Assembly: GCA_051362555.1 (NCBI GenBank)
Contig: CM120640.1
Coordinates: 12,152,001-12,216,000, forward strand
Source of the DNA: Lingula anatina
Taxonomy: Eukaryota > Animalia > Brachiopoda
DNA: 64,000 bases
Direction: 5' to 3'
Shown: positions 44,601-53,976 of the stretch, one piece after another
Layout of the letters: every line of letters starts with the position of its first letter
Numbering within the stretch: the stretch's first letter is position 1
Program-made: the position numbers and the translations under genes
The notes under the pieces: model-generated
Told to the model about the DNA's origin: nothing
The model's input: the letters and a program-made list of their open reading frames with translations, nothing else
Database searches by the model: none

Positions 44601-47600
44601 GTTAAATGAAAAACTAATAACAAAATTCCAAGCAATAACAGAATAATAGGTAACAATATATAGAACATATTGTTCGTCTAAATTAAGGATAATAATCGAC
44701 TCAAAGTTATTTCTGACACATTGACCGAAATAAATCGTCAAAGGGTCGTCTTTTATTTGTTTTTTTTTTTCATGGACTAGCTGTGTTCTTGCAAGTGTAC
44801 AATGACAGTACTGTCAATTGGGACTGCAACTGAACAGCAGCAAATTTAAGATAAGAAAAGCAACTAAGAAAATAACTATCATAATAACTGTGTCAGAACC
44901 GTAAGTGAACGTTAAATGAGACAAATTTTCGCAGGGAAAAACATCAATGAGCAATTCAATTCAATGTTTGCAAGTTGTAAAATGTGCCAGGTACAAAATG
45001 TAACAGTGCCTATACAGTAGTTTGCAACATTTTCCTTTACTCGAAGTCTGCTTACCTTCTGTAAGATGATTCAAGGCTTTGGTTTTCAAGTTGCTGCTGG
45101 CGGACATCTTTAATCACGCTGAGGATGATGGTCTCAAACTGGGTCAAGAGGTGGGGTACGTCTGAGGCGTGCAATTGCTGGTATAACTCACAAACGTTTT
45201 CTTGACTGAAATTCAAAGAACGGTCTTCATAACATACATTCGACAATGATGCTTGAATGTCAATTTAATAGCCATAAAATTAAGAATTACGAGAGGAGGG
45301 GCAACTTTTCGGACTTTTTTATGTTTTACTTAAGACCCTTCAAACAGTTTGATGGGTCTTAGGTTTGACTGTATTTTATCAACTGTCATAGTATTTTTTT
45401 AGAGAACAAATCAAGTAGGGCCCTGTGCGCCAAATGCTAGTGCATGAAGTTAAAGAGTTTCATTTTTACCGTATCTTTGTTTCGAGTTATGGAAATATGT
45501 GAAAACTATAATAACTGACTTAGTGAAAATGTGCAAACCATGCCACAAATGTGTTTGTTAAAGTTGTAAATTACGTCATGAAATATTTATTATAAGGATT
45601 GTCAATGGATTGCAGCACCATTTATAAAACTTTGCCGAAAAAAAAACGATTTTTATATTTGCATAAGAACGTCTTAAACTAAAAGTGGGGTACTGTTATG
45701 TATTCTCTGACCACAGGGTGCGCTACTCGTCTGTTACAAAAATGTTGAAAGCGCCCCACGGAGGGATTTTGTACCATGCAATCAGAAGGTAACTGTAACG
45801 TGCGTCTTCTGAGACCTAAGAAATACCTGTAAGCTAGTTATTGAGTTTCGACCATGAGTTCAAATCAATTTATAACATGATCAAGAAAAACTATAATCGT
45901 CTCTTCGTCAAATTTAATTCAATTTACCTAAAAACTGGTAAATGTGATAAATCTTCCCCGTGTCGCTTGCGAAATTCTTCCGGTAGTAAGGGTTCTACTG
46001 GTACGCCATTATAGAGTGGCTTATCAAATTGTACAACGTCAGAGCAGTCACTATATTCGTAACACGTTTCATTATAACCCTCATCACTAGCCCTATATTG
46101 GTTTTCTTTTGTTTCCTCGACATCGCATTCTTGTTCTTTGTCAATTTCGTCTTCTTCAGTATCGTCATATTCCCATTCATTGCTGTTGCTTCCATGGTGT
46201 AGCCGGACGTTATCAAGAAACGAGGAATGGTGTTTGAAACCTTGTTCAAAGTCACTGAAGTTCACCCTCCCGTCCCCATCCCTGTCTAGTTGGTGAAAGA
46301 ATTGTTCAAAGTCTCCAACATAAAGGCTGAGCTCATCACATAATTCACGAAGGTGATCCTTCTCCAAGTAGCCATTTCTATTGACATCGCAAGTAGCAAA
46401 TAGATTCTGGATGCGTTCAAATTCCATCATTCATAGTTCCCAGTCGTTGCCATCATCTGGATCACAAACTGTGTCAGAAATGGGAAAATAAATATTGTCT
46501 CTTGCCAGAGGTTATCTTTTTGTTTTGAACGTTGAAAAAAGCAGTGCAAAGTATAATTCCTACGTTTTAGATGATATTGAACATGAGTTGAGTTGCACGG
46601 TCCAGCTCTTGGTCATTTCTCGCCTGCTTCAACAGCTTATGTATGCTTAAATACCAGGTTATGTCATTATGTATAGATTTCGCACAGAAAAATTCTTAAC
46701 TTTGACCCTAGTAAAGTCAACACGCGTAAGCAAAAGACGGAATCGACACGAAGCATTATTCAAACAACATAATTCGTCAGTAATGGTCGGGATTTCCTCT
46801 ATTGACCCACGCTTGTTTTATCTGCAGGTGCCACTTGTGTTCAGCCTTGTGCTTGTTAGAAAACACATGCACATCTCTCCTTTTTTGCTTATTTTAAGAG
46901 TTGAATATAATAAACTGTTTCCTTAAATTCTCTCAGTGAAGAGGAGTGGCCATTGCAGGAGTGCGAGGACTTAATAAAGAAACATTTAAAACAAAGATTG
47001 CAACTACAGAGTCCACGTATTCAAAAACGAATGAAATAAAAATATGTTTAGGAAACTCTACACCAAAATGTCATATGCACCCATAGACATAAGTGCTGCG
47101 TCTCACAAGAGCAAGACAGAATCAATGAAAGCACCCTGGCAACGCAGACGACATCAATTTTTACTTCCGAACGCGGGAAATAGAAGAAGTAAAGAGAGAA
47201 GATTTGGTCATTTGTTCGTTCATCAAAATACTATACAAACTATAGCAAGTATATTTACTTTTTTTAAGTCCTTCAAAATTTATATTTTCTGAAATATGAT
47301 ATGAAGTACCTGCTTTGAGAGAGGCAATTTTTGTCAACGTTTACTTATAAGATAAAAAGTATATTTTGAGCGTTGGAAGTTGTTTATCATCCCCTCGCAA
47401 CTTTCTTTTTAAAAAGCATTTAAAAGTACCATTTTCGGTTATTATTTGATTTGAATACAAGAGTAGTTTCTGCTATTTTCTTTTTATCACACACAGATTT
47501 GTAACATTTTTTATCAAATAGGACTTGACAATGTTCCAAAACACTTGTTCTTTTTACATAAAATGTAAGTATTGCTTTGTCAATAGATGTATGTCTACTT

Positions 47601-53600: not shown

Positions 53601-53976
53601 GCCTGAAATATATGTTGGCGAAGGACAAAAAAGTAAAAACTTACCAAGAAAGCGCCTCGAGCCCTTCGTCCAGTCTCTTGGCAAAATCATCTCCAGTTCC
53701 ACCTTGACTTAAAATGGAGTTCCCCCTCTTCAAGCTCTTCTTCCTCGATTTATCTATCAATATGCTTTTAAATCCTTCCGTAAACTCTGCCACACTGATT
53801 CGGCCGTCCCCATCCTTGTCCAACTCTTTAAAGACATCTCCAAGTTCGTCTGTGGTAAGTTCTGTGCATAATCTGGCCAACTCCGACTGGTCTATATACC
53901 CAGAACCATCTAGATCACACGCCTCAAAAAGCTGTCCAATTTGACTAGAATTATCCAGTACTTCAACGTCACCCAT
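31095..53976 (-). CDS. RASEF: RAS and EF-hand domain-containing protein (Rab45): EF-hands, coiled coil, Rab GTPase domain, C-terminal CC prenylation motif
   Basis: Exons (minus): 53976-53645, 45205-45056, 43052-42962, 36078-35983, 35574-35378, 35220-35152, 34888-34792, 34510-34449, 34312-34179, 33950-33814, 33651-33409, 33149-33014, 32748-32667, 32306-32192, 31981-31862, 31581-31505, 31191-31095(TGA). Motifs [45 protein letters not shown]; coiled coil [17 protein letters not shown] typical of RASEF. Confidence 0.95.
31995..32060. repeat. (TA)n microsatellite next to a RASEF splice acceptor
   Basis: Visible TA repeat ending about 13 nt from exon 31981-31862. Confidence 0.9.
36575..36652 (+). 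pseudogene. Relic first exon of a second, inward-facing transposon gene: (L)[25 protein letters not shown]
   Basis: Mirror position to the transposase ATG in the other TIR (cattggcg vs catggcg), with similar translation to [30 protein letters not shown] disrupted. Confidence 0.55.
38516..42501 (-). pseudogene. Multi-exon DDE integrase/transposase (Cys-rich N-terminus, HTH-like SESTLKRRL, integrase core), inactivated
   Basis: Exons 42501-42394, 42037-41920, 41700-41618, 41358-41268, 40817-40742, 40431-40334, 40217-40124, 39798-39699, 39499-39360, from 39258, 39170-38969, 38754-38516. Motifs [52 protein letters not shown]. Lesions: in-frame TAA at 41321-41323, donor AT instead of GT at 40123, degenerate exon between 39698 and 39500, expected RIE (catalytic Glu) absent before FWSTF. 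Confidence 0.85.
41561..41612. repeat. (AT)n microsatellite in a transposase intron
   Basis: Visible. Confidence 0.9.
45928..46430 (-). CDS. RASEF: Alternative first coding exon B of RASEF: second EF-hand pair plus acidic linker
   Basis: ATG directly preceded by in-frame TGA; EF loops [12 protein letters not shown] and [12 protein letters not shown]; ends TTT AG|gtaaat (phase 2), matching the phase-2 acceptor at 45205; TATA-like TATTTAAG near 46646-46653. Confidence 0.85.
48142..48182. repeat. (AG)n microsatellite
   Basis: Visible imperfect AG repeat. Confidence 0.8.
49255..49510. repeat. Diverged two-copy tandem duplication, unit about 145 bp
   Basis: gtgcttttcatctttcatctacc(a/g)ctgttc...ggataaactttcatta...ctttcaagtttcaatt occurs twice (near 49256 and 49400). 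Confidence 0.85.
50271..50485 (-). CDS. Candidate alternative first coding exon C of RASEF (71 aa, no EF-hand)
   Basis: caaaATGGca start, 215-nt open frame, ends ATT CC|gtgagt (consensus donor, phase 2), compatible with the acceptor at 45205; no homology evidence. Confidence 0.5.
53410..53603. mobile_element. MITE (about 194 bp) with GGC(C)CGTAGCC TIRs and 8-bp TSD, hAT-like
   Basis: tgaaatat|ggcccgtagcc ... ggctacggcc|tgaaatat (TSD 53402-53409 and 53604-53611); internal G-runs and A-run. Confidence 0.75.

What the first reader, a model, noticed from the sequence alone, without database searches (positions are those of the whole stretch)
45056..53976. RASEF appears to have a switchable N-terminus: three phase-2 first exons feeding one common exon
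Seen: exon A (53976-53645, TG|gtaagt), exon C (50485-50271, CC|gtgagt) and exon B (46430-45928, AG|gtaaat) each start with their own ATG and end in phase 2, matching the shared acceptor at 45205. A and B each encode an EF-hand pair, which suggests exon duplication; B cannot be an internal exon because TGA sits in frame right before its ATG. Known: vertebrate RASEF has one N-terminal EF-hand module ahead of the coiled coil, and Rab45 is a dynein adaptor. Inference: a variable-exon/constant-region design giving one Rab motor adaptor alternative calcium-sensing heads by promoter choice.
Basis: partly seen in the sequence, partly recalled or inferred. Interest (0 to 1): 0.8.

Follow-up and report, generated by a model that had tools for sequence, protein, structure and literature searches.

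The report
Ancient two-headed RASEF motor adaptor gene
This brachiopod gene for a Rab-type motor adaptor carries two very different calcium-binding-type head exons; RNA shows only one in use here, the other is likely used too because corals, molluscs and echinoderms have annotated isoforms with each head, and the swap is predicted to change the adaptor's calcium sensitivity.

Summary
Coordinates, ATGs, phase-2 donors and the shared acceptor are as described. The gene is Lingula anatina RASEF; RefSeq's protein uses head A. RNA reads show A spliced to the common exon in 4 of 8 runs. They also show that A is not a first exon: a non-coding leader splices into it (57052>54235). No B or C junction was listed. 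B is nonetheless very likely real. In 10 coral, mollusc and echinoderm species, annotated isoforms join an A-type or a B-type EF-hand head at this same junction to near-identical bodies, and coral contigs show the same order and phase. A 2-3-residue deletion marks A-type heads. Human RASEF's head is B-type. Lingula A has canonical calcium loops; B lacks Glu12 in both loops. C looks like a chance ORF (about 20% real). So the design is two heads, not three, and the duplication is ancient rather than local. EF-hand-less isoforms are published for mouse Rasef; I found no paper on swapped paralogous heads. This scan earlier noted an EF-less RASEF first exon in a sea urchin.

The parts
57052..57130 (-). 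non-coding leader exon U (donor AG|gtgagt at 57052; 5' end not mapped, left bound given is a minimum)
   Evidence: joint 54235-57052 with CT..AC ends on the + strand: X8 12, X9 7, X6 3 reads; loose ends in X7 match 57054-57083 exactly
53645..54235 (-). exon A: 259 nt of 5' UTR, ATG at 53976, short-linker EF-hand pair with two canonical loops (D1/E12), phase-2 donor
   Evidence: junction to 45205: X7 8+6, X8 21+2, X9 9, X6 1; equals residues 1-110 of RefSeq protein P0004
50271..50485 (-). candidate exon C, EF-hand-less 72-codon frame; probably not an exon
   Evidence: no homologue; codon score inside the intron null; no junction listed; reads on both strands in stranded X6, and a 1-nt deletion at 50329 in 3 of 6 X8 reads
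46647..46653 (-). TATA-like TATTTAA, 223 nt upstream of B's ATG (weak promoter hint)
   Evidence: regex scan; 4 sense reads in X6 cover 46540
45928..46430 (-). exon B coding part: long-linker EF-hand pair (loop position 12 = His and Asp), acidic linker, phase-2 donor; a candidate acceptor lies at 46468
   Evidence: best PDB hit is the human RASEF EF-hand 2PMY, ungapped over 63 residues, E 1.9e-13; B-type linker length; acceptor scan
45056..45205 (-). first constant exon (150 nt, phase 2 in and out)
   Evidence: reads; 100% identical to P0004 residues 112-161
31098..43052 (-). remaining constant exons: coiled coil, linker, Rab domain, C-terminal CC
   Evidence: tblastn of P0004; junction 45056>43052 in X8, X9, X6; Pfam Ras E 2.7e-51

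Best explanation
This RASEF gene holds two old, paralogous EF-hand head exons in tandem ahead of one shared acceptor: A is spliced in from an upstream non-coding leader, B is likely used as an alternative start in tissues or stages not caught here, and the two heads are predicted to differ in calcium binding. Shown: leader>A>common exon in RNA; both heads are open and in phase 2; each has an in-frame stop before its ATG, so A>B splicing at the candidate acceptor 46468 would stop at once and an mRNA can carry only one head. Inferred from relatives: B>common exon splicing in Lingula. Inferred from tree, indel, order and phase: one duplication before the cnidarian-bilaterian split, with vertebrates keeping a B-type head. 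Predicted by analogy with CRACR2a, FIP3 and ninein: the head grips the dynein LIC1 helix, A with calcium loaded and B without, so exon choice would set whether the same Rab cargo adaptor responds to calcium. C is probably a chance frame.
For: Ten same-species pairs have heads identical at only 24-43% of aligned positions and bodies identical or nearly so from the same junction: Antedon 599/599, S. purpuratus 632/632, Diadema 612/618, Biomphalaria 632/632, Dreissena 639/639, Magallana 585/603, Oculina 803/803, P. damicornis 1093/1093, P. verrucosa 1092/1092, A. muricata 736/736 (I chose these pairs). Glandiceps and Patiria show both heads too. Linker span is 20-21 in 32 of 32 A-type rows, and 23-25 in 34 of 34 B-type rows and 2 of 2 outgroup rows (groups were assigned by this indel, and rows include near-duplicates). 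In coral-like contigs L001 and L006 an A-type exon end (GG|gtaagc) lies about 8.6-9.5 kb upstream of a B-type exon. That B exon starts with its own ATG just after an in-frame stop and ends in phase 2 (GG|gtaaat in L001; L006 ends at the junction). L007 has B followed by the common exon. Both loops have D1/E12 in 24 of 32 A-type rows and 0 of 28 invertebrate B-type rows. PMC7655957 states that Glu at position 12 is needed and that these EF-hand pairs bind the LIC1 helix (passages). B's 167-codon frame is intact and scores 0.08 on codon bias, above 48 of 49 intronic open frames. Stranded run X6 has sense-only depth of 1.59 over 46258-46751.
Against: No B junction was listed in 8 runs. In X7, X8 and X9 the A junction alone accounts for 14 of 21, 23 of 31 and 9 of 13 reads at 45147, about what A alone would give. 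X6 has almost no depth (0.07) over B's 3' part. RefSeq lists four Lingula accessions, all the A protein; a second cluster member could not be read. Human Rab45 has canonical loops (5 of 6 vertebrate rows; PMC7655957) yet activates dynein without calcium (PMC6504896), so loop sequence does not settle regulation. One origin of A-type heads has only 87 SH-aLRT in a reduced tree; the 62-row tree puts cnidarian A heads apart, and a cnidarian A+B clade is not rejected (p 0.11). The relatives' isoforms are database models whose read support I did not see.
Confidence: 0.75

Rival explanations
1. B is a relic in Lingula: inherited from the two-head ancestor but now silent or nearly so, leaving a single-head gene.
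For: No B junction in 8 runs. RefSeq shows only A. Lingula B has a long branch (1.3-1.8) and His at loop position 12.
Against: 503-nt open frame, intact donor and phase, an ungapped match to the human head, coding-like codon score, sense reads at its 5' end in X6. Degenerate B heads are annotated isoforms in molluscs.
Confidence: 0.12
2. B is chosen by splicing, not by promoter: the shared leader U splices to A's acceptor (54235) or to an acceptor at 46468, making A and B mutually exclusive second exons.
For: A is demonstrably reached from U. A pyrimidine-rich CAG acceptor lies 38 nt before B's ATG.
Against: 4 sense reads in X6 cover 46540, upstream of that acceptor, and a TATA-like box lies at 46653. 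No U>46468 joint was listed. This evidence is only about 6 reads.
Confidence: 0.25
3. C is a real third, EF-hand-less start exon, like the short heads annotated in relatives and mouse Tsg.
For: Strong donor and phase. A frame this long with such a donor arose in 13 of 2000 Markov resamples (thresholds set after seeing C; 203 of 2000 at 90 nt). EF-less heads join this junction in Patiria X6/X7, Antedon X4 and Pocillopora X5/X6. The two displayed read variants in C are synonymous, though both are CpG transitions. X8 and X9 have depth 3-5 there.
Against: No homologue among 320 fetched proteins, Pfam or the Atlas. Codon score -0.17, inside the null. Five similar ATG-open/donor frames lie antisense to the RFX-like genes in this window. 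Reads are on both strands in stranded X6, occur in X2 that lacks RASEF exon reads, extend past the donor (50201), and 3 of 6 X8 reads carry a frameshifting deletion. This fits a dispersed repeat.
Confidence: 0.2
4. The two-head layout arose twice, once in cnidarians and once in bilaterians.
For: The 62-row tree separates cnidarian from bilaterian A heads. A cnidarian A+B clade is not rejected (p 0.11). The deletion is 3 residues in cnidarians and 2 in bilaterians.
Against: The linker deletion falls at the same place, exon order and phase match, the canonical loops sit in the same head, and the 39-row tree unites all 19 A-type rows (87, unstarred).
Confidence: 0.2

Closest known systems
Mouse Rasef / Tsg (Rab45-L and Rab45-S), PMC5057473 and PMC8303950
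   Same: Same gene family. An alternative transcription start and alternative exon 1 change the N-terminus on a constant coiled-coil and Rab body.
   Different: Tsg simply lacks the EF-hands. Here two paralogous EF-hand pairs replace each other.
Rab44-L/S and C. elegans 4R79.2a/b (PMC8303950)
   Same: Large-Rab isoforms that differ at the EF-hand end.
   Different: Presence or absence of one head, not a choice between two heads.
RefSeq RASEF isoform sets of invertebrates (e.g. Patiria XP_038052634-41, Glandiceps XP_077977984-90, Antedon XP_071956585-90, Biomphalaria XP_055899960-70)
   Same: A-type, B-type and sometimes EF-less heads at the same junction.
   Different: Automatic annotation only. 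I found no paper describing the pattern, and the Lingula B form was not among the records seen.
EF-hand dynein adaptors CRACR2a/Rab46, FIP3, ninein, human Rab45 (PMC6504896, PMC7655957)
   Same: An EF-hand pair ahead of a coiled coil; calcium-gated and calcium-independent versions exist.
   Different: In mammals the two behaviours sit in different genes. Here they would be isoforms of one gene (predicted).
Variable-first-exon loci such as clustered protocadherins and UGT1A (recalled, not from a call)
   Same: Duplicated 5' coding exons spliced to constant exons.
   Different: Only two variable heads, about 40% identical. A is a second exon behind a non-coding leader, and separate promoters are unproven.

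Membership tests
RASEF/Rab45 large Rab GTPase | N-terminal EF-hand pair | tested here: met
   Pfam EF-hand_7 above cut-off for A and B; B's best PDB hit is human RASEF 2PMY
RASEF/Rab45 large Rab GTPase | C-terminal Rab GTPase domain with terminal cysteines | tested here: met
   Pfam Ras 550-715, E 2.7e-51; P0004 ends in CC; all exons map to the window
RASEF/Rab45 large Rab GTPase | Central coiled coil | not tested
   No coiled-coil predictor was run; precomputed PF27574 is listed for P0004
RASEF/Rab45 large Rab GTPase | Orthology to RASEF rather than Rab44 or Rab46 | tested here: inconclusive
   RefSeq name and nearly all named hits say RASEF homologue; no Rab-domain tree was built
EF-hand activating dynein adaptors | Binds the LIC1 helix and activates dynein-dynactin | not testable with these tools
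   B aligns without gaps to the CRACR2a EF pair of 6PSD (E 9e-8); PMC7655957 says binding cannot be predicted from sequence
Variable-first-exon/constant-region locus | Duplicated variable coding exons each spliced to the same constant exon | tested here: inconclusive
   Met for A in reads. For B, met only in relatives' annotated isoforms. Not seen for C
Variable-first-exon/constant-region locus | Each variable exon is a first exon with its own promoter | tested here: not met
   A is spliced from leader U; B's start is unresolved
Calcium-binding EF-hand loop | Asp at position 1 and Glu at position 12 | tested here: met
   Met in both loops of A; not met in either loop of B (His, Asp)

The most novel reading that the evidence does not exclude
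The ancestral animal RASEF gene had a built-in calcium switch for dynein transport: a calcium-gated head (A) and a constitutive head (B) as alternative exons, kept from corals to brachiopods and echinoderms. Vertebrates lost A, which would explain why human Rab45 ignores calcium while CRACR2a supplies the gated function.
Probability: 0.3. Interest if true: 0.75.

Novelty: new variant of a known kind. Interest (0 to 1): 0.52.

Why it matters
How EF-hand dynein adaptors come to be calcium-gated or not is open: CRACR2a is gated, while Rab45, FIP3 and ninein are not. An invertebrate gene offering two heads on an identical body is a natural swap experiment. It can be tested in species with RNA data and tools such as sea urchin, sea star and coral. 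It also corrects the vertebrate-centred picture of RASEF as a one-head protein and adds a likely missing isoform to the Lingula annotation.

Tried and rejected
No whole genome is held, so I could not count copies of the C region or run tblastn in relatives' genomes. The look-up of sequencing runs listed no RNA holder by words; the nine runs came by species label, 8 of 9 were laid (X3 not), and only 6-30% of each was read. X1, X2 and X4 had no depth on exon A and X5 had about 2 reads. A near-length homologue search with B alone found nothing. phmmer of B against representatives was led by multi-EF-hand proteins; the single-stretch hits are unnamed RASEF-like head exons. A and B share no meaningful DNA similarity, which rejects a recent duplication. 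A four-EF-hand A+B protein is rejected for Lingula because of stops before B's ATG; one Pocillopora gene prediction (P0250) fuses them, probably a model artefact. The bacterial promoter scan does not apply. The careful tree did not finish, so both trees are 'quick'. The second dropped 23 of 62 rows (long-branched mollusc B heads and close relatives). No structure or complex prediction was run, as no LIC1 sequence was available. Literature searches found no description of two swapped EF-hand heads: RASEF + alternative first exon, 0 papers; 1 Hydra preprint, listing only; RASEF + Lingula, 0. The library lacks most subscription papers and no supplements were read.

Full report
Sequence check. The three segments are at the stated coordinates on the minus strand, open from ATG, of lengths 332, 215 and 503 nt, all phase 2, with donors gtaagt, gtgagt and gtaaat. 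The exon at 45205-45056 accepts each in frame. A and B encode EF-hand pairs and C matches nothing. A and B are 40% identical over 72 residues, with no meaningful DNA similarity. The common exon is 100% identical to a protein named Lingula anatina RASEF homolog, P0004, 744 aa. P0004 begins with head A and maps over the window to 31098. Four RefSeq accessions carry this one protein; a second cluster member was not readable.

RNA. Eight of nine offered runs were laid, 6-30% of each. The A junction 53645>45205 appears in X7 (8, plus 6 with nearby differences), X8 (21+2), X9 (9) and X6 (1); X1, X2, X4 and X5 show none. A further junction 57052>54235 (X8 12, X9 7, X6 3; 25 loose ends in X7, located) shows that A is a second exon behind a non-coding leader. 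No B or C junction was listed (threshold 3 reads; 4 weak rows hidden). A's junction count against depth at 45147 is 14/21, 23/31 and 9/13, close to my rough expectation of about three quarters if A were the only source. B and C are therefore at most minor in those three samples. In X6, which appears stranded (RASEF exons show one direction only), the bin 46258-46751 has sense-only depth 1.59, with 4 reads over 46540, but 45764-46257 has only 0.07. X9 has a trace there and the other six runs none. This is a weak hint of a start upstream of B. A TATTTAA lies at 46653 and a candidate acceptor at 46468.

Comparative evidence for B. A search with P0004 residues 1-330 gave 125 hits, 120 listed. Cutting each at the residue that aligns to the common exon showed two head types joined to the same body within species. 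Ten same-species pairs (Antedon, S. purpuratus, Diadema, Biomphalaria, Dreissena, Magallana, Oculina, two Pocillopora, Acropora muricata) have heads 24-43% identical and bodies 97-100% identical over aligned positions. Cluster look-ups added Glandiceps and Patiria; for these I compared only the first 18 residues after the junction. For Branchiostoma, Ptychodera, Apostichopus and Haliotis only A-type heads were among the members read. These are database models and I did not see their read support. Genomic DNA agrees. A coral-B alignment found 10 metagenome loci, 7 of them true B exons. Two of these (L001, L006) also hold the end of an A-type exon 8.6-9.5 kb upstream, and one (L007) holds the common exon downstream. 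Donors are phase 2, and 6 of 7 B exons have an in-frame stop within three codons of the ATG. Order and phase match Lingula.

Age and identity of the heads. The span between the loops is 20-21 residues in A-type heads and 23-25 in B-type heads and in two EFCAB4-like outgroup pairs (my label for P0121), so the deletion is the derived state. Lingula A is short and Lingula B is long. B's best solved-structure hit is the human RASEF EF-hand (2PMY, E 1.9e-13, ungapped), whereas A's top 60 hits are calmodulin-like chains. All 6 vertebrate-type rows examined are long. That suggests loss of A in vertebrates but does not prove it, because vertebrate sampling was small. A 62-row quick tree groups 24 bilaterian A heads including Lingula A (96) and leaves cnidarian A heads unresolved. 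A 39-row tree without long-branched and redundant rows unites all 19 A heads (87, unstarred), rejects Lingula A+B as sisters (p 0.0039) and does not reject a cnidarian A+B clade (p 0.11). The duplication thus predates the bilaterian radiation with good support and the cnidarian split with moderate support.

Mechanism. Human Rab45 and CRACR2a are dynein adaptors; only CRACR2a needs calcium (PMC6504896, passages). The EF-hand pairs of CRACR2a, FIP3 and ninein bind the LIC1 helix; loops need Asp1 and Glu12, and Asp12 can shift preference to Mg2+ (PMC7655957, passages). Lingula A has D1/E12 in both loops; B has His12 and Asp12. Across rows, both loops are canonical in 24 of 32 A-type, 0 of 28 invertebrate B-type and 5 of 6 vertebrate heads; the first loop is canonical in 32 of 32 A-type and is eroded in mollusc B heads (rows include near-duplicates). 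I therefore predict that A is a calcium-binding head and B a calcium-independent one on the same cargo-binding body. Against this, human Rab45 has canonical loops and still ignores calcium, so the functional step is a prediction only.

Exon C. For it: a consensus donor, the right phase, low odds in Markov resamples (13 of 2000, threshold set after the fact), two synonymous read variants (both CpG transitions), and EF-less heads at this junction in Patiria, Antedon and Pocillopora models. Against it: no homologue, a codon score of -0.17 within the range of 49 intronic open frames while A scores 0.18 and B 0.08 (815 training codons), and five comparable frames antisense to the neighbouring RFX-like genes. 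Reads there behave like a repeat: both strands in X6, present in X2, extending past the donor, and a frameshifting deletion in 3 of 6 X8 reads. I put C at about 20%.

What is known. Large Rabs commonly have isoforms with or without the EF-hand domain (PMC8303950, passages). Mouse Tsg arises from an alternative start and exon 1 and lacks the EF-hands (PMC5057473, passages). PMC3504004 (passages) covers Rab45 orthology but showed nothing on alternative heads in the passages seen. Nine searches (listings and abstract starts only for the other papers) found no account of two paralogous heads. The pattern already sits in RefSeq without comment.

Verdict. Real, ancient, two-headed rather than three-headed. 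A is shown in RNA, B is inferred, the promoter model is unproven and the calcium switch is predicted. New variant of a known kind; interest 0.52.

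Noticed in passing
window 917-6111 and 20914-29061, + strand: Two stretches of RFX-type exons (Pfam BCD_RFX at 917-1336, 24793-25092, 25101-25403) with similar peptides, suggesting tandem RFX paralogues; the second lies tail to tail with RASEF.
   Followed up: partly
window 38516-39566, - strand (RASEF intron): Transposon remnant: integrase core domain rva_4 at 38934-39194 (E 4.9e-9).
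   Followed up: partly
window 36293-36631 and 42448-42794: Two copies of a roughly 350-nt element in opposite orientation, 76% identical, in the same RASEF intron; probably a non-autonomous transposon.
   Followed up: no
window 62685-63787, + strand: Start of an FAD/NAD-binding oxidoreductase gene (NAD_binding_8), divergent from the RASEF leader about 5.6 kb away; it looks like prenylcysteine oxidase (recalled label).
   Followed up: partly
window 53421-53520, 44895-44937, 45704-45749, 49973-50010: Short repeats that attract many partly matching RNA reads (up to thousands at 53447-53516) from other loci.
   Followed up: no
proteins P0265, P0090, P0271: Some teleost RASEF proteins carry the B-type EF-hand pair twice in tandem in one chain (P0265, P0090), a separate later duplication.
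   Followed up: no
window 53645-54235, runs X7-X9: Reads of study P3 differ from the window by roughly 5-10% in exon A and its UTR under the same species label, hinting at a divergent population or cryptic species.
   Followed up: no
proteins P0248, P0252, P0255, P0261, P0262, P0227: In molluscs the B-type head has lost its first EF-hand loop, and in Biomphalaria it has gained a long Ser-rich extension (279-residue head).
   Followed up: partly
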